DNA from: Escherichia phage vB_EcoS_SA126VB
DNA: 61,753 nucleotides
Reading direction: 5' to 3' (one strand)
Sequence record: OL960573.1
A program made the position numbers and the translations under genes. Numbering within the stretch: position 1 is the stretch's first letter; each line of letters starts with the position of its first letter. Below are positions 2,115 through 60,767 of this stretch, piece by piece. The notes beneath the pieces are model-generated. The model ran no database searches, was not told where the DNA came from, and worked only from the letters and a program-made list of their open reading frames with translations.

Positions 2115-3611
2115 ATGGGTATTGATGCAACTCACCCGCTATATGATAAGTGGAAGGGTGCATGGGTCAAGTGCAACGACTGCTATGAGGGTGAAGATAA
2201 AATTAAGGAAGAAGGTGTTAAATATCTACCGCCTTTAGCTTCCATGATTATTGATGGGATGAATAATCCTGATGATTTGGGCTTTCAACGTTGGCTCGCT
2301 TATCGTCTGCGTGCTAACTTCCCTGACGATTATTCAAGTGCGGTTACAAACAATTTAGGCCTGCTGCACCAGAAGCCTCCTACAATCCAGCTTCCACCTG
2401 AAATGGAATACATGCGGGAGCTGTGTACTGCGGACGGTGAAGACATTATTGCTCTGCTACGTCGCATCAATGAAATGCAGTTAAAAAATGGACGTTTGGG
2501 CCTGCTGCTGGACTTACCTAAAGGTGAGGATGTAAATAACAGACCTTATATTAGCGTTTATGATGCTTTATCCATTATTAACTGGGATGATGGTAAAGAT
2601 GAATTGGGCAATATCAACTTGAACATGGTTGTTCTGGATGAAAGCGGTCCTGTACGTGTCAATCAGTTTGACTGGAAAGAAGAGAAGCGTTATCGCGTTC
2701 TACAATTGGGTCCAATGGACACAGATGAAGTTGCAGGTGGGGCGGTCTACTCCCAACATCTGTTTATTAACAATACCAATTATGATGAAGGGCAAATGAT
2801 TGCTCCTTATTATAAAGGTAATACGCTGGATGAAATTCCTTTCCAGTTTGTCAATACAACAGATATTACCCCAGCACCGGAAGCGCCGCCATTGTTGGGT
2901 CTTGCTAACATTTGTCTAAGCATGTACCGAAGTGACGCGGATTACCGCCAAAGCTTGCATATGCAGGGTCAGGACACCTTAGTCGTTGTTGGTGGTACTG
3001 GGGAGAATGGGGATAAAGCCCCTCAACGCATTGGCCCTGGCGCTGTCATTAACGTTGCTATTGGTGGTGACGCTAAATATGTAGGTGTTAGCGGTGACGG
3101 TTTGTCCGAGCAACGTCTCGCACTAGCTGCGGATAAGCAAGAAGCCCAAATTAAAGCCGGGCAAATGGTAAACAACACCAAGAGCACGCAGGAATCAGGC
3201 GAAGCTATGAAAACGCGTATTGCTGCGCGTACAGCTAGCCTGATTCGAATTGCGTATACTGGTGCGGCAGGTTTGGAAAACTTGCTGAAGGTTTGCGCTA
3301 AATGGATGGGTGCTGATCCAGAGAAAGTTGTGGTTAAGCCTAATCTTGAATTTACCAAGAGCATGTTTAACGGTCAGGACTTTGTTCAAATTATTACTGC
3401 ACGCAACCTTAAGGCTCCGATCAGCTTGCAGTCTATTCATGGCTGGCTTGTTGATCAGGGCTTAACCACACTAAGCTTTGAAGAAGAAATGGCAATTCTT
3501 GAGGAAGAGCTTAAGAAGTGGCCTCTGCCCGATGATGCTAAGGCTGATTTAAACGCAGAGCAGCAAGTAAACAAAGATCCTAAGGAAGACAACGCTTCCG
3601 ATAAAGAATAG
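2115..3611 (+). CDS. portal protein
   Basis: 498 aa directly after terL; GGAGGG RBS before ATG 2115; canonical position. Confidence 0.75.
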   Translation: MGIDATHPLYDKWKGAWVKCNDCYEGEDKIKEEGVKYLPPLASMIIDGMNNPDDLGFQRWLAYRLRANFPDDYSSAVTNNLGLLHQKPPTIQLPPEMEYMRELCTADGEDIIALLRRINEMQLKNGRLGLLLDLPKGEDVNNRPYISVYDALSIINWDDGKDELGNINLNMVVLDESGPVRVNQFDWKEEKRYRVLQLGPMDTDEVAGGAVYSQHLFINNTNYDEGQMIAPYYKGNTLDEIPFQFVNTTDITPAPEAPPLLGLANICLSMYRSDADYRQSLHMQGQDTLVVVGGTGENGDKAPQRIGPGAVINVAIGGDAKYVGVSGDGLSEQRLALAADKQEAQIKAGQMVNNTKSTQESGEAMKTRIAARTASLIRIAYTGAAGLENLLKVCAKWMGADPEKVVVKPNLEFTKSMFNGQDFVQIITARNLKAPISLQSIHGWLVDQGLTTLSFEEEMAILEEELKKWPLPDDAKADLNAEQQVNKDPKEDNASDKE

Positions 3612-3706: not shown

Positions 3707-4579
3707 ATGAAAAAGAGTTCTGTAGCTATTAGTGTTGGTATGGCTTTAATTAATCCACGCGCTCGCGGTGAAGGTGATGTGGAACTGGAATACGAATATG
3801 CATCTGCGGAAGAGATCCCGGCAGAGTTTGCAACTCTTTACGCAGAGCAGGGCGGTAAATACGTTCTTGCAAAAGTTAAAGGTGTAGCCCCTGCTGATAG
3901 CGTTCGTCGTCTGGAAAGTGCGTTAGCTAAAGAACGTAACGACCATCGTCAGGTGAAGCAACAGATTAGCGCACTTGGGCGTCCGGTTGAAGAAGTCCTT
4001 GCGGACCTTGATCGTATCCCTCAACTGGAAGCTGCCGCTAACGGTAAAGGTACTCCGGAAGACATCGAAAAGATGGTTAAAGCCCGTCTTGCTCCGCTCG
4101 AGCGTCAATTACAAACTGTAGCAGCTGAACGCGATTCCGTTAAGCAGGAAATTGAAGGCTACCGCACTCGCGAAACTAAAGCGAAAATTAAAGACGCAGT
4201 TATTGCTGCTGCATCCGGTGCTAAGCTGCGTCCGTCTGCTATCGAAGATGCGGTGACTTATGCACAGTTGCAAATGACCGTCGACGAGAACGGCAATGTG
4301 GTTACGAAAGATGGGGCTGGTGTAACTCCATACCTGACTCCGGCTGATTGGCTGAACGAAATCCTTCCGAAACGTCCGCACTGGGTTGAAGGATCTGCTG
4401 GTGGCGGTGCGTCTGGTCCGGGCGCTGGCGGTCATCACGGTGAAGACCCATACAGTCACGACGGTTGGAACATCTCTAAGCAGATGAATCTCTGGAAAAC
4501 TAATCAATCTTTAGCTAAACGCTTAGCTGAAAAGAATGGCGTAGACCCGCTGAAGCCTGTACGTCCTGCTAAGAAATAA
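3707..4579 (+). CDS. putative scaffolding protein
   Basis: 290 aa, charged helical sequence between portal and major capsid genes; GGAGA RBS. Confidence 0.5.
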   Translation: MKKSSVAISVGMALINPRARGEGDVELEYEYASAEEIPAEFATLYAEQGGKYVLAKVKGVAPADSVRRLESALAKERNDHRQVKQQISALGRPVEEVLADLDRIPQLEAAANGKGTPEDIEKMVKARLAPLERQLQTVAAERDSVKQEIEGYRTRETKAKIKDAVIAAASGAKLRPSAIEDAVTYAQLQMTVDENGNVVTKDGAGVTPYLTPADWLNEILPKRPHWVEGSAGGGASGPGAGGHHGEDPYSHDGWNISKQMNLWKTNQSLAKRLAEKNGVDPLKPVRPAKK

Positions 4580-57277: not shown

Positions 57278-57670
57278 ATGCGATTAGTCGTCACCGGAGG
57301 TCGAGATTTTAAGCATGTGGAGTATATTTACGCTCAATTGGATAAGATGCATATGCAAAGAAGGATAACCACACTTCGCCACGGTGACGCTGACGGTGTT
57401 GACCGCATTTGCGAACATTGGGCGGAGCGGAACGGTATTAAGACGGAGGCGTTTCCTGCGCCGTGGCACAATCTTTCACTGCCAAATACTAAGATACGAT
57501 ATAACGCCAAAGGAGCTTATAATGCGCAAGCAGGCGCTTACCGTAATCAATTAATGCTGGATACTGATCCTAAACCAGATCACGCTATTGTGTTTCCGGG
57601 CGGAGCTGGTACTATGGACATGTACAGACGGATTAAAGCATCCGGTATTCCTTACACATTAGCGGAGTAA
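57278..57670 (+). CDS. LOG/SLOG-like Rossmann-fold protein (predicted nucleotide-processing enzyme)
   Basis: VVTGGRDF near N-terminus and VFPGGAGTMDM (PGGxGT motif) near C-terminus; GGAGAAG RBS. Confidence 0.4.
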   Translation: MRLVVTGGRDFKHVEYIYAQLDKMHMQRRITTLRHGDADGVDRICEHWAERNGIKTEAFPAPWHNLSLPNTKIRYNAKGAYNAQAGAYRNQLMLDTDPKPDHAIVFPGGAGTMDMYRRIKASGIPYTLAE

Positions 57671-57673
57671 ATA

Positions 57674-58144
57674 ATGGCTGACGTTAAAACTATTGTTGAT
57701 GCAATGGACGAATCCAAAGACTGCCAACTGAAGAAGTCGTTTGAAGTAAAACAGGTTACAGAAACTCAGTTGGTCTGCAATTTTGCGCGTTATTGTGGAC
57801 TGGGACGCGGGAAAGACTGGAACGGGCTTATTGTTATGCCCACATCACAGATCCTTGTCTATGTCCGTAATGTTGTAGAAGATCTTTTACGTCTTCAAAT
57901 AGATATTGGTGACGTAGAAATTAACATGACTGCGAGCTCTACTATTGTGGTTAAATGGCAGTCGGGCGAGACACTGCGTTTGGAAGCGTGTCATTGTGCT
58001 AAGAGCTTGCACCACCTGCGCGGTTGTCACTACCAGTTTGTTGGGTTTGTGCATCCGCAAGGGTTAAGCGAGCGTACGGCGCTGGTAGCGCGTTTGCTGC
58101 TGCGTCCTTACAATAACGAGCCGGAAGTTATATACGAGGCATAA
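57674..58144 (+). CDS. hypothetical protein
   Basis: 156 aa, GGAG RBS. Confidence 0.45.
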   Translation: MADVKTIVDAMDESKDCQLKKSFEVKQVTETQLVCNFARYCGLGRGKDWNGLIVMPTSQILVYVRNVVEDLLRLQIDIGDVEINMTASSTIVVKWQSGETLRLEACHCAKSLHHLRGCHYQFVGFVHPQGLSERTALVARLLLRPYNNEPEVIYEA

Positions 58145-58145
58145 G

Positions 58146-58352
58146 ATGGAAACCCCATTGGCTAAACAAATGATAGAGCGTGCTGATCGGGACGGTTTGC
58201 CCGAAGACCATGCTATGCGTCGAACTGCACAAGCGTTTGACGAAATTAGCGTTAATTACGCTATGGGAAAGAGCACGCCTAAAGGCTTACTGGGCGCATG
58301 GGCTCGCGCTCGTCGCTGCTGGTGCAACTACACCGGAGAACCGCTTGTATGA
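58146..58352 (+). CDS. hypothetical small protein
   Basis: 68 aa. Confidence 0.35.
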   Translation: METPLAKQMIERADRDGLPEDHAMRRTAQAFDEISVNYAMGKSTPKGLLGAWARARRCWCNYTGEPLV

Positions 58353-58771
58353 TTAAACATGTTAAGCAACCAACGTTGAATACATGCGTTTCTGCGTGTT
58401 TGGCAATGATCCTTAATAAACCTGTTGAGAATGTGATTGAGGAATTTCATAGTCGTTATTATAACAACTGGGAGATTACTATCAGCGAATATTTGACTAA
58501 AAACGGCGTCCAGCATCATTGTTCGGAAGGTGGTGGACGGGAAACTTTGCATATGGGAGGTTTGTTCCTGTGCACGGTGCCAAGTCTTAATATTCCGGGC
58601 GCATTGCACCAGATTGTAATTGATATGACAGATCACAAGTTTATTGTGTATGATCCAATTAAAGGATGGGAAGGTAAAAAGTTCTATGTTGGTCCGGATC
58701 AAGATCCTGAAGAGCCTGGAGCTTTTATCATTCATACTTGGGTCAAAGACGTTGAAATCCTGCTTTATTAA
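58349..58771 (+). CDS. papain-like cysteine peptidase, C39-like
   Basis: ATG 58349 overlapping previous stop; QPTLNTCVSACLAMIL (Cys motif) and HQIVIDMTDHKFIVYDP (His region). Confidence 0.45.
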   Translation: MIKHVKQPTLNTCVSACLAMILNKPVENVIEEFHSRYYNNWEITISEYLTKNGVQHHCSEGGGRETLHMGGLFLCTVPSLNIPGALHQIVIDMTDHKFIVYDPIKGWEGKKFYVGPDQDPEEPGAFIIHTWVKDVEILLY

Positions 58772-58833
58772 TTTTCTTGCTATCACATAACCCTTCATTG
58801 TATTGTGTACCCATCGAATAAGAGGGGTACACA

Positions 58834-59019
58834 ATGACCAAACTATACGCCGGATTGTTTTTATTTGCGACGTTAATGTTCGCTGGGCTTTATACCTATA
58901 CAGTAGTCGAACAACCTTCCACGGTTATCCGAATCTTTGCAAGTACAGGGCTTTGCATCTGTCTTATTCTATTTGTTTTATGCATTGTTATTATCCAAGA
59001 CCAAAGGAAAGTTAAATGA
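58834..59019 (+). CDS. small membrane protein
   Basis: 61 aa, two hydrophobic helices, AAGAGGGG RBS. Confidence 0.4.
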   Translation: MTKLYAGLFLFATLMFAGLYTYTVVEQPSTVIRIFASTGLCICLILFVLCIVIIQDQRKVK

Positions 59020-59480
59020 CCACAATTGCGTTTGATGGAAAAGTATTAGCTGCGGACCGTGGAGTTATGCGCGGGGAAGCTGTGACTGCTTATAAGAAAG
59101 TTCATAGCGTGAATGGACATCGTGGACGGTTTCTACTGGGCTTGTGCGGCCTTACAGCATTTACCGATCAGGTGTTGCGTTATTTTAATAGCGCGGAACC
59201 TGTTAAGTTCCCTGATATTAAACTTTACAGTAAAGATGATGATTACGGGCAAACTTGCGGTCTTGCTGTCACTCCGGAAGGTACTTGCCATTTTATTTAT
59301 AATGATGGTACTTTGAGCGAGCCCATGCTGGATGGATGGGGATCTGAGGGTAGCGGTTGTGTGTTTGCTGCTGGGGCGTTAGCTGCTGGTGCAAGTGCGA
59401 GCGAAGCTATTGAGTTGGCAATTAAACACACCACCTGCGCATTCCTGGGAGTTGATACAATATCATTTGAGGGTTTTTAA
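59016..59480 (+). CDS. HslV/proteasome-beta-like Ntn-hydrolase fold protein
   Basis: N-terminal MTTIAFDGK (Thr at position 2 after Met removal, as in HslV TTIV); Gly-rich GSEGSGCVFAAGALAAG segment. Confidence 0.4.
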   Translation: MTTIAFDGKVLAADRGVMRGEAVTAYKKVHSVNGHRGRFLLGLCGLTAFTDQVLRYFNSAEPVKFPDIKLYSKDDDYGQTCGLAVTPEGTCHFIYNDGTLSEPMLDGWGSEGSGCVFAAGALAAGASASEAIELAIKHTTCAFLGVDTISFEGF

Positions 59481-59481
59481 A

Positions 59482-59973
59482 ATGGAATGGTCTTCCATAT
59501 TTACTTATTTGGATGGAAAGCTGTTCTGGAAAACTTCTAGAGGTGGTAGAGTTATACCAGGAGCACTTGCTGGTCATGCTACAAAGAGGGGTTACGTTAA
59601 AATACGATGCGGTTGTAGTTTCTATCTAAGGCATCGCATAGTATGGGAAATGCATAATGGTTCCATTCCCGAAAATATGCAAATAGATCATATTAATCAC
59701 GTTCCTGGAGATGACAGGATAGAGAATCTTAGATTAGTTACAAGTACATTAAATAATAGGAACGTAACCAGATCTAAGCTTAATAAGTCTGGTGTTACTG
59801 GTGTTTGCTATCACAAAAGAAATAAAAGATGGATAGCTTATATTAATACACAGGTTGGTCAAGTAAGACTTGGCTCTTTTATTAATTTTGAAGATGCTGT
59901 CAATGCTCGTAAAAATGCTGAGATTGTATATGAATACCACGAGAATCACGGAACTGAACGTAAGAGTTTTTGA
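59482..59973 (+). CDS. HNH homing endonuclease (HNH_3 plus AP2-like domain)
   Basis: IDHINHVPGDDRIENLRLVT HNH core; AP2-like KSGVTGVCYHKRNKRWIAYI; ATG 59482 right after previous stop. Confidence 0.7.
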   Translation: MEWSSIFTYLDGKLFWKTSRGGRVIPGALAGHATKRGYVKIRCGCSFYLRHRIVWEMHNGSIPENMQIDHINHVPGDDRIENLRLVTSTLNNRNVTRSKLNKSGVTGVCYHKRNKRWIAYINTQVGQVRLGSFINFEDAVNARKNAEIVYEYHENHGTERKSF

Positions 59974-60740: not shown

Positions 60741-60745
60741 CTGAC

Positions 60746-60767
60746 GGGGCGTTAGCCCCTTTTATTT
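60746..60767 (+). terminator. rho-independent terminator
   Basis: GGGGC-gtta-GCCCC followed by TTTTATTT. Confidence 0.65.

What the first reader, a model, noticed from the sequence alone, without database searches (positions are those of the whole stretch)
58349..59480. Two predicted peptidases of different folds encoded side by side
One gene shows the C39/papain-like Cys and His motifs (QPTLNTCVSACLAMIL; HQIVIDMTDHKFIVYDP). Two genes later an ORF begins MTTIAFDGK with a Gly-rich core, like HslV/proteasome-beta Ntn hydrolases whose catalytic Thr is exposed after Met removal. Neither sits in the head module, so they are unlikely to be the prohead protease. A pair of proteases in this non-structural block could target host proteins or process phage proteins.
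Basis: inference. Interest (0 to 1): 0.55.

Follow-up and report, generated by a model that had tools for sequence, protein, structure and literature searches.

The report
Two side-by-side phage peptidase genes
This E. coli phage carries two small predicted protein-cutting enzymes almost next to each other, one related to bacteriocin-processing cysteine peptidases and one a miniature proteasome subunit; both look catalytically intact, but what they cut has never been tested.

Summary
The window is a complete Seuratvirus genome; the 140-aa protein is identical to one of Escherichia phage vB_EcoS_SA126VB.

ORF 59016-59480 (154 aa) is a proteasome-beta/HslV-type hydrolase (pLDDT 95.6; profile E 2.5e-9 to HslV). 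It keeps Met-Thr, Asp14, Lys28, Gly45 and Ser113. It matches the features reported for PPH, a phage proteasome-homologue family described in 2021, and some records already call it "peptidase HslV family".

The pair is retained in every relative examined with about 67% or higher terminase identity, although the two proteins have drifted to 26-38% identity. Outside that lineage each gene usually occurs without the other, so an obligate two-enzyme machine is unlikely.

Substrates are unknown. One testable lead: related C39 toxins cleave GyrB/ParE, and in Kuttervirus the homologue lies between the phage's topoisomerase II genes.

Verdict: real, moderately interesting, new members of known kinds.

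The parts
58349..58771 (+). Gene for a 140-aa standalone C39-clade papain-like cysteine peptidase (called C39L here; PHROG 4049, 'unknown function')
58367..58399 (+). Codons for Gln7 (58367-58369, oxyanion hole), Cys13 (58385-58387, nucleophile) and Cys17 (58397-58399, CxxxC partner)
   Evidence: Q7 and C13 are invariant and C17 is at least 90% conserved in 108 sequences. An HMM alignment puts Q and C in register with LahT150 (6mpz; the alignment itself is not significant, E 2.1). The Q+6=C and C+4=C spacings match StbD-CT Gln177/Cys183/Cys187.
58607..58654 (+). Codons for His87 (58607-58609) and Asp102 (58652-58654), followed by Pro103
   Evidence: H87, D102 and P103 are invariant in 108 sequences and align in register with the His and Asp of LahT150.
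58834..59019 (+). Intervening 61-aa hydrophobic ORF (PHROG 22841). It is not a conserved part of the pair.
   Evidence: In Nonagvirus JenK1 and Hafnia phage yong3 a 117-124-aa non-hydrophobic ORF lies between the pair instead (yong3 also has a non-hydrophobic 61-aa ORF before its PPH gene). In PSTCR7 and several IMG/VR loci the two peptidase genes abut.
59016..59480 (+). Gene for a 154-aa proteasome-beta/HslV-type N-terminal-nucleophile hydrolase of the PPH type
   Evidence: PHROG 1040 'peptidase HslV family' E 5e-32; Pfam Proteasome 15.4 bits, below the 22.4-bit cut-off. AF2 pLDDT 95.6. Foldseek probability 1.0 to HslV, beta5 and BPH. Profile E 2.5e-9 to HslV. Fits the PPH description in PMC8665760.
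59019..59354 (+). Codons for Thr2 (59019-59021, nucleophile after Met removal), Asp14 (59055-59057), Lys28 (59097-59099), Gly45 (59148-59150) and Ser113 (59352-59354, inside Gly-Ser-Gly)
   Evidence: T2, D14, G45, G112 and G114 are invariant and K28 is at least 90% conserved in 22 sequences. D14, K28, G45 and the Gly-Ser-Gly align with the corresponding HslV positions in the profile alignment, which starts at residue 9.

Best explanation
What they are. The two genes encode small, single-domain cytoplasmic peptidases that appear catalytically competent.

C39L. This is a standalone member of the C39 clade of papain-like cysteine peptidases. Cys13 would be the nucleophile, His87 the base, Asp102 would orient the His, and Gln7 would form the oxyanion hole. 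By analogy with its closest structural relatives, I infer that it makes one or a few site-specific cuts next to small residues (Gly-Gly type) in a folded host or phage protein, rather than degrading protein in bulk.

PPH-type protein. This is a stripped-down proteasome-beta/HslV homologue. Host methionine aminopeptidase would remove Met1 and expose Thr as the N-terminal nucleophile, with Asp14 and Lys28 completing the triad.

How they relate. The genes form a conserved pair in Queuovirinae-like siphophages. Each occurs alone in many other phages. The most likely reading is therefore two independent, fast-evolving accessory proteases acting inside the infected cell (host takeover or counter-defence), not a head-maturation enzyme and not an obligate two-enzyme machine.

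Shown versus inferred. Shown: fold, conservation of catalytic residues, family size, synteny. Inferred: proteolytic activity, Gly-Gly-type specificity, host-directed role.
For: Identity of C39L.
- pLDDT 96.
- Q7, C13, H87 and D102 are invariant in 108 sequences.
- 8 of 108 members match Pfam Peptidase_C39.
- One public metagenome record labels an orthologue with the ComA peptidase-domain structure title.

Identity of PPH.
- pLDDT 95.6, Foldseek probability 1.0, profile E 2.5e-9 to HslV.
- Catalytic residues are conserved.
- The second helix of the first helix pair is missing from the model, as reported for PPH.

Accessory, host-directed reading.
- C39L homologues lie in early or replication regions and in blocks of small unknown ORFs in unrelated phages: the lambdoid nin region, Kuttervirus, Certrevirus, T4-like vibriophage, Samunavirus, Enhodamvirus.
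- In relatives whose large terminase is 67-76% identical, the pair has drifted to 26-38% identity. That is faster than portal (46-60%) or capsid (52-56%).
- The relative Vid5 does not carry either protein in its virion.

Separability.
- 15 of 51 C39L loci with at least 6 kb of downstream sequence carry PPH.
- Only 2 of 80 PPH-seeded loci carry C39L, and both are Seuratvirus.
- More distant relatives L163 (C39L only) and L034 (PPH only) keep one gene.
Against: - No activity, substrate or expression timing is known for either family. The literature searches found only the 2021 bioinformatic description of PPH.
- Neither protein reaches the Pfam gathering score. NCBIfam and PADLOC give no hit.
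- Every relative examined with about 67% or higher terminase identity keeps both genes close together. A second, unrelated prophage lineage has both genes 3-5 kb apart. This hints at some functional link.
- PPH homologues lie within or next to packaging and head modules in about half of the loci examined, which fits a late or morphogenetic role better than host takeover.
- No canonical prohead protease is annotated in this genome type.
Confidence: 0.6

Rival explanations
1. The two enzymes work as one functional module. For example, C39L makes a specific first cut and PPH, as a self-compartmentalising ring, degrades the fragments. Alternatively, both act on the same host pathway.
For: Adjacency or near-adjacency holds in all relatives examined with about 67% or higher terminase identity, despite 26-38% protein identity. 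In PSTCR7 the two genes overlap by 4 nt. They co-occur 3-5 kb apart in unrelated lambdoid prophages. PPH is always downstream on the same strand.
Against: 78 of 80 PPH-seeded loci lack C39L, and 36 of 51 C39L loci with enough flank lack PPH. Whole families with C39L have no PPH nearby: Kuttervirus, Vibrio VP2/VP5, Samunavirus. Conserved synteny within one lineage can be inheritance alone. The gene between them is not conserved.
Confidence: 0.18
2. The PPH-type protein is a morphogenetic protease. It would process a head, scaffold or connector protein during assembly and then be lost from the virion.
For: PPH homologues lie between portal and scaffold/capsid genes (L009, L023). They lie between head-tail adaptor Ad1 and head closure Hc1 in phages with the same capsid family, PHROG 247 (L048, L061). 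They lie directly before the large terminase gene in Ralstonia phage QkW1. A large terminase gene lies within 3-4 kb in 49 of 99 loci. In this phage no other maturation protease is annotated, and PPH is about 2.3 kb upstream of the small terminase gene across the genome ends.
Against: A relative's capsid protein matched the SPP1 coat protein by HHpred, and a separate scaffolding protein is present (PHROG 206). By my own knowledge, SPP1-type heads need no protease. PPH was not detected in Vid5 virions. It diverges much faster than the head proteins. Sites upstream of terminase and between head and tail genes are also classic insertion points for accessory genes.
Confidence: 0.12
3. C39L is a host shut-off protease. 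It would cut the conserved HAGG|K loop in the ATPase domains of host GyrB and ParE, as the interbacterial C39 toxins Cpe1 and StbD-CT do.
Confidence: 0.12
4. One or both proteins are not proteases in vivo. C39L could be a papain-fold isopeptidase, deamidase or transferase, for example removing a ubiquitin-like tag. PPH could be a ligase/transpeptidase like connectase, or an adaptor that captures host HslU.
Against: The best structural matches are true endopeptidases, and the full Gln/Cys/His/Asp set is kept. PPH keeps the complete Thr/Asp/Lys set plus Gly45 and Ser113, as in active HslV.
Confidence: 0.1

Closest known systems
C39 peptidase domains of bacteriocin/quorum-peptide ABC exporters (PCAT1, ComA, LahT; Pfam PF03412, MEROPS C39)
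   Different: C39L is a standalone soluble protein, not fused to an ABC transporter. No leader-peptide substrate gene lies nearby. It is below the Pfam gathering score. It has a conserved second Cys (CxxxC) that is absent from the LahT segment aligned. It is encoded by phages in early or accessory regions.
Interbacterial C39 peptidase toxins Cpe1 (E. coli T6SS) and StbD-CT (C. rodentium CdiA-like), which cleave GyrB/ParE
   Different: C39L has no delivery domain (PAAR, CdiA or YajC-entry) and no adjacent immunity gene. No sequence-level link was found by profile search. The target of the phage protein is unknown.
[quoted passage not shown]
   Same: Compact size (the paper gives about 140 residues; here 154). 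No propeptide. The second helix of the first helix pair is missing. Nearest to HslV and BPH. Found in tailed phages and prophages. Catalytic Thr/Asp/Lys retained.
   Different: Nothing found argues against membership. Direct clustering with the paper's reference sequence WP_042125023.1 could not be done. The positional patterns (frequent placement next to terminase or head genes, pairing with C39L in Queuovirinae-like phages) did not appear in the passages of that paper I retrieved.
HslV (ClpQ), the protease subunit of bacterial HslUV
   Same: N-terminal Met-Thr-Thr-Ile start. Thr nucleophile exposed by Met removal. Asp, Lys, Gly and Gly-Ser-Gly positions align. Same fold.
   Different: About 20 residues shorter and lacking one helix. 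No hslU-like ATPase gene nearby. TM-score only about 0.66. Below the Pfam Proteasome cut-off and no NCBIfam match. Oligomeric state is unknown.

Membership tests
Peptidase C39 clade (papain-like, clan CA) | Papain-like alpha/beta fold closest to solved C39 domains | tested here: met
Peptidase C39 clade (papain-like, clan CA) | Catalytic Cys, His and Asp/Asn plus oxyanion Gln, in that order | tested here: met
   Q7, C13, H87 and D102 are invariant in 108 sequences and align in register with LahT150.
Peptidase C39 clade (papain-like, clan CA) | Scores above the curated Pfam PF03412 threshold | tested here: not met
   13.5 bits against a 22-bit cut-off for the window protein. Only 8 of 108 family members match at E up to 0.01, best 2.4e-6.
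Peptidase C39 clade (papain-like, clan CA) | N-terminal domain of an ABC exporter with a double-glycine leader-peptide substrate encoded nearby | tested here: not met
   Standalone 140-aa protein. No ABC transporter and no conserved small neighbouring ORF in 83 loci.
Peptidase C39 clade (papain-like, clan CA) | Cleavage after a Gly-Gly motif | not testable with these tools
   Needs biochemistry.
C39 toxins that cleave GyrB/ParE (Cpe1, StbD-CT) | Structural and motif similarity to the toxin peptidase domain, including the Cys four residues after the nucleophile | tested here: met
C39 toxins that cleave GyrB/ParE (Cpe1, StbD-CT) | Delivery domain and cognate immunity protein | tested here: not met
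   No N-terminal extension in the window protein. The longer family members carry other phage-type extensions. No conserved partner gene.
C39 toxins that cleave GyrB/ParE (Cpe1, StbD-CT) | Cleaves the HAGGK loop of GyrB and ParE | not testable with these tools
   Only contextual hints: in Kuttervirus the gene sits between the topoisomerase II subunit genes.
[quoted passage not shown] | Proteasome-beta-like Ntn fold with the Thr1/Asp17/Lys33 triad and the Gly47 oxyanion position | tested here: met
   T2, D14, K28 and G45, plus S113 in Gly-Ser-Gly.
[quoted passage not shown] | No propeptide; compact size (about 140 aa); second helix (H2) missing | tested here: met
   The Met-Thr start is invariant. 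154 aa. The model has one helix (47-58) followed by coil through 61-79, where H2 would be. The criterion comes from PMC8665760.
[quoted passage not shown] | Encoded by tailed phages or prophages | tested here: met
   59 phage records and 144 IMG/VR matches.
[quoted passage not shown] | Clusters with the reference sequence WP_042125023.1 | not tested
   The reference sequence was not retrievable with these tools and did not appear among the cluster members read.
HslV proper | Paired with the HslU AAA+ ATPase; full-length HslV architecture; curated model match | tested here: not met
   No ATPase gene in the neighbourhood. One helix is missing. Pfam Proteasome 15.4 bits against 22.4, and no NCBIfam hit. 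Use of the host's HslU cannot be excluded.
Phage prohead (head maturation) proteases | Belongs to a known prohead-protease family and is encoded between the portal and capsid genes | tested here: not met
   Neither protein matches such a family. In this genome the head module runs terminase, portal, scaffold, capsid, with no protease. Neither protein is in Vid5 virions. Some PPH homologues elsewhere do occupy that position.

The most novel reading that the evidence does not exclude
The unannotated phage C39L family (about a thousand 50%-identity clusters) is a widespread host shut-off weapon. On this reading it is a phage-encoded counterpart of the Cpe1 and StbD-CT toxins and cuts the Gly-Gly loop of host GyrB and ParE. 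In Kuttervirus it is built into the phage's own topoisomerase II operon, whose product reads YAGSN at the corresponding position. In Queuovirinae-like phages it is kept together with a mini-proteasome (PPH) that might dispose of the products.
Probability: 0.1. Interest if true: 0.8.

Novelty: new member of a known kind. Interest (0 to 1): 0.42.

Why it matters
Few phage-encoded proteases other than head-maturation enzymes have been characterised. This window shows two of them, each belonging to a sizeable family.

C39L.
- 994 clusters at 50% identity and 195 cultured phages, including Kuttervirus and T4-like vibriophages.
- Annotated as 'hypothetical' in all but one public record seen.
- It can now be read as a catalytically intact C39-type cysteine peptidase.
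- There is a concrete, cheap first experiment: does it cut GyrB and ParE as the related interbacterial toxins do?

PPH.
- It is the only viral branch of the proteasome family and has no known function.
- This study adds two new clues: it tends to sit next to terminase and head genes, and it is paired with C39L in Queuovirinae-like phages.

Practical point. Seuratviruses and Nonagviruses are in the BASEL collection and grow on E. coli K-12, so knock-outs are practical.

Tried and rejected
- Single-sequence searches of both proteins against PDB sequences gave nothing useful. The C39L profile against PDB sequences gave only non-significant hits.
- hhalign of the family profile against a LahT segment aligned only the Cys motif (probability 59.5%).
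- NCBIfam and PADLOC gave no hits for either protein.
- The promoter/terminator scan was uninformative. Promoter-like sites were only somewhat above the shuffle expectation (33 against 23.4, sd 5.3). The only strong terminator-like site lies after the endolysin gene. Expression class remains unknown.
- I looked for a conserved small substrate gene next to C39L across 83 loci and found none. The recurrent neighbours are lambdoid replication and nin genes.
- I checked whether the longer family members were CdiA or T6SS toxins. They are not; they carry other phage-type extensions.
- A third homologue search with the family profile retrieved no toxins and no annotated proteins.
- I considered that a second peptidase next to PPH might be a general rule, because a PhageMetallopep gene follows PPH in prophage locus L115. 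It did not recur in the neighbour clustering.
- I looked for the published PPH reference accession among cluster members and did not find it.
- Literature searches for functional work on either family in phages found none.

Full report
**What the window is**

The region matches Seuratvirus phages (Queuovirinae) of E. coli at about 96% nucleotide identity: SHIN8, slur01 and CAjan. The 140-aa protein is identical to a protein of Escherichia phage vB_EcoS_SA126VB, whose genome is 61,753 bp, the same length as the window. The window is therefore a complete phage genome.

Genes on the + strand run from about 52 kb through small unknown ORFs, the two peptidase genes and the lysis cassette. They then continue, across the genome ends, into small terminase, large terminase, portal, scaffold and capsid genes.

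**Checking the observation**

The ORFs and motifs are exactly as described.

| Gene | Coordinates | Length | Note |
|---|---|---|---|
| C39L | 58349-58771 | 140 aa | its start overlaps the upstream ORF by 4 nt |
| hydrophobic ORF | 58834-59019 | 61 aa | lies between the pair |
| PPH-type | 59016-59480 | 154 aa | its start overlaps the 61-aa ORF by 4 nt |
| HNH endonuclease | 59482-59973 | 163 aa | follows directly |

**The first protein (C39L)**

- Library matches. Standard libraries say little: PHROG 4049 'unknown function', and Pfam Peptidase_C39 at 13.5 bits, below the 22-bit cut-off.
- Family size. An exhaustive profile search found 994 clusters at 50% identity with E up to 0.001, and 638 with E up to 1e-10.
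- Conservation. In a 108-sequence alignment with 27% mean column identity, the only invariant columns are Q7, C13, H87, D102 and P103. C17 is at least 90% conserved.
- Structure. The AlphaFold2 model is confident (pLDDT 96, pTM 0.90).
- Supporting links. Eight of the 108 members match Pfam C39 directly, best E 2.4e-6. An HMM alignment to LahT150, not significant on its own (E 2.1), places Q, C, H and D in register.

The C39/papain-like reading is therefore well supported. Formal Pfam membership is not met, and the protein is standalone rather than part of an ABC exporter.

**The second protein (PPH type)**

- Library matches. PHROG 1040 'peptidase HslV family' at E 5e-32, and a sub-threshold Pfam Proteasome hit.
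- Conservation. M1, T2, D14, G45, G112 and G114 are invariant, and K28 and D147 are nearly so.
- Structure. The model has pLDDT 95.6.
- Fold matches. Foldseek finds HslV, proteasome beta5 and BPH at probability 1.0 with TM about 0.66. The family profile matches HslV sequences at E 2.5e-9, aligning the Asp, Lys, Gly and Gly-Ser-Gly positions.
- Missing helix. The model has a single helix where proteasome-like proteins have a pair: helix 47-58 is followed by coil through 61-79.
- Family assignment. [quoted passage not shown]

I could not cluster the protein directly with their reference sequence. No later functional study of PPH was found. Some GenBank records already call the orthologue 'peptidase HslV family', 'putative protease' or 'ATP-dependent protease'.

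**Are the two genes linked?**

*Within the Queuovirinae-like lineage.* Every relative examined with about 67% or higher terminase identity keeps both genes close together on the same strand, with C39L upstream. These are Seuratvirus including Hafnia phage yong3, Nonagvirus JenK1, Pantoea phage Vid5, Providencia phage PSTCR7, and seven IMG/VR contigs. The two proteins are only 26-38% identical to those of the window. What lies between them varies:

| Phage | Between the two genes |
|---|---|
| this window | a 61-aa hydrophobic ORF |
| JenK1, yong3 | a 117-124-aa non-hydrophobic ORF (plus a 61-aa one in yong3) |
| Vid5 | a SLOG-domain gene |
| PSTCR7 | nothing |

*Outside the lineage.* Seven or eight lambdoid prophage contigs carry C39L in the nin region and a PPH-like gene 3-5 kb downstream, after the lysis genes and before terminase.

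*Overall counts.*
- 15 of 51 C39L-seeded loci with at least 6 kb of downstream sequence have PPH.
- Only 2 of 80 PPH-seeded loci have C39L, and both are Seuratvirus.
- More distant relatives keep one gene or the other: L163 has C39L only, and L034 and L048 have PPH only.
- Kuttervirus, Certrevirus, a T4-like vibriophage, Samunavirus and Enhodamvirus have C39L among early or small unknown genes with no PPH nearby.

I conclude that the pair is a conserved piece of synteny in one lineage, with a hint of wider association. Neither enzyme depends on the other.

**Where PPH sits elsewhere**

Among 99 PPH-bearing loci, a large terminase gene lies within 3-4 kb in 49, typically about 1 kb downstream. 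Examples:

| Locus | Gene order |
|---|---|
| L009, L023 | portal, 92-aa ORF, PPH, 310-aa protein, capsid |
| L048, L061 | capsid (same PHROG 247 family as here), head-tail adaptor Ad1, PPH, head closure Hc1 |
| Ralstonia phage QkW1 | PPH immediately before the large terminase gene |

Four points still make that role unlikely here:
- A relative's capsid protein matched the SPP1 coat protein by HHpred, and there is a separate scaffolding protein. From my own knowledge, SPP1-type heads mature without a protease.
- No protease is needed by the annotation of the head module.
- Mass spectrometry of Vid5 virions lists 11 proteins, and neither orthologue is among them.
- Both proteins evolve much faster than the head proteins.

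**A functional lead for C39L**

- What the toxins do. That toxin and E. coli Cpe1 cleave the conserved HAGG|K loop in the ATPase domains of GyrB and ParE. This collapses DNA supercoiling.
- Shared motif spacing. The residues reported for StbD-CT are Gln177, Cys183, Cys187, His258 and Asp275. Their spacings match Q7, C13, C17, H87 and D102 of the phage protein closely, including the second Cys.
- Kuttervirus context. In Kuttervirus bering the homologue is wedged between the phage's topoisomerase II large and medium subunit genes. The annotated start there cuts off the catalytic Cys. The full ORF begins 2 nt after the upstream gene.
- Phage topoisomerase motif. The phage subunit reads YAGSN at the position I take to correspond to HAGGK. 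That alignment is by eye.

Against the idea:
- No profile search linked the phage family to the toxins.
- The topoisomerase context was seen only in Kuttervirus.
- Seuratviruses have no topoisomerase of their own.

I rate this about 10-12% likely, but it is cheap to test.

**Verdict**

- The HslV-like protein fits an already described, functionally uncharacterised family.
- The C39-like protein belongs to a large, essentially unannotated phage family, now assignable to the C39 clade.
- The side-by-side arrangement is real and conserved in one lineage, but it is not evidence of a joint machine.
- Function, substrates and timing remain unknown.

Interest is moderate.

Noticed in passing
window 59482-59973 (+): An HNH endonuclease gene (Pfam HNH_3, E 1.5e-19) lies between the PPH gene and the endolysin gene. 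It is present only in some Seuratviruses (SHIN8, SLUR76/26, slur01). In most relatives the match stops at window 59481, so it looks like a mobile homing-endonuclease insertion.
   Followed up: partly
window 57278-57670 (+); L145 10465-10833; L168 about 4031-4546: A YspA/YAcAr SLOG-domain protein (Pfam PF10686, E 8.8e-19) recurs beside the peptidase pair. It lies upstream in Seuratvirus, between the two genes in Pantoea phage Vid5, and directly upstream of C39L in Providencia phage PSTCR7 at 32% identity. It could be a third member of an accessory island.
   Followed up: partly
window 58801-58836 (+): A 12-bp stem-loop (-20.1 kcal/mol, z -3.5 against shuffles) pairs the Shine-Dalgarno sequence and the AUG of the 61-aa ORF. 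That ORF's stop overlaps the PPH start. No T-run follows, so it is not an intrinsic terminator. It might throttle translation of the 61-aa ORF and, through coupling, of PPH.
   Followed up: partly
L170 4480-4929 (Salmonella phage bering, Kuttervirus): The C39L homologue sits between the topoisomerase II large and medium subunit genes. Its GenBank start (MSACLAM...) is too far downstream and removes the catalytic Cys. The full ORF starts MVLNPLVHQKQPTGNTCMSAC, 2 nt after the upstream gene.
   Followed up: yes
L009 6929-7342; L023 about 2984-3406; L048 10001-10516; L061 2946-3386; L167 5001-5447: PPH homologues lie inside head or connector gene clusters: between portal and capsid genes (L009, L023), between head-tail adaptor Ad1 and head closure Hc1 (L048, L061), or immediately before the large terminase gene (L167).
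   Followed up: partly
L115 15574-16657: In a GC-rich lambdoid prophage, the PPH-like gene passes the Pfam Proteasome gathering score (27.5 bits). It is followed, with overlap, by a Pfam 'Putative phage metallopeptidase' gene (E 6.8e-43) and then by terminase genes. This pairing did not recur in the neighbour clustering.
   Followed up: partly
window 57674-58144 (+): The 156-aa ORF (PHROG 25149, unknown function) gives a very weak NCBIfam hit to DpdG of the 7-deazaguanine DNA-modification system (E 0.029, 13.7 bits against a cut-off of 80). It is probably chance, but this phage type does modify its DNA with 7-deazaguanines.
   Followed up: no
window 60741-60759 (+): The only strong terminator-like hairpin in the + strand block (GGGGCGTTAGCCCC followed by a T-run) lies between the endolysin and holin genes, inside the lysis cassette.
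   Followed up: no
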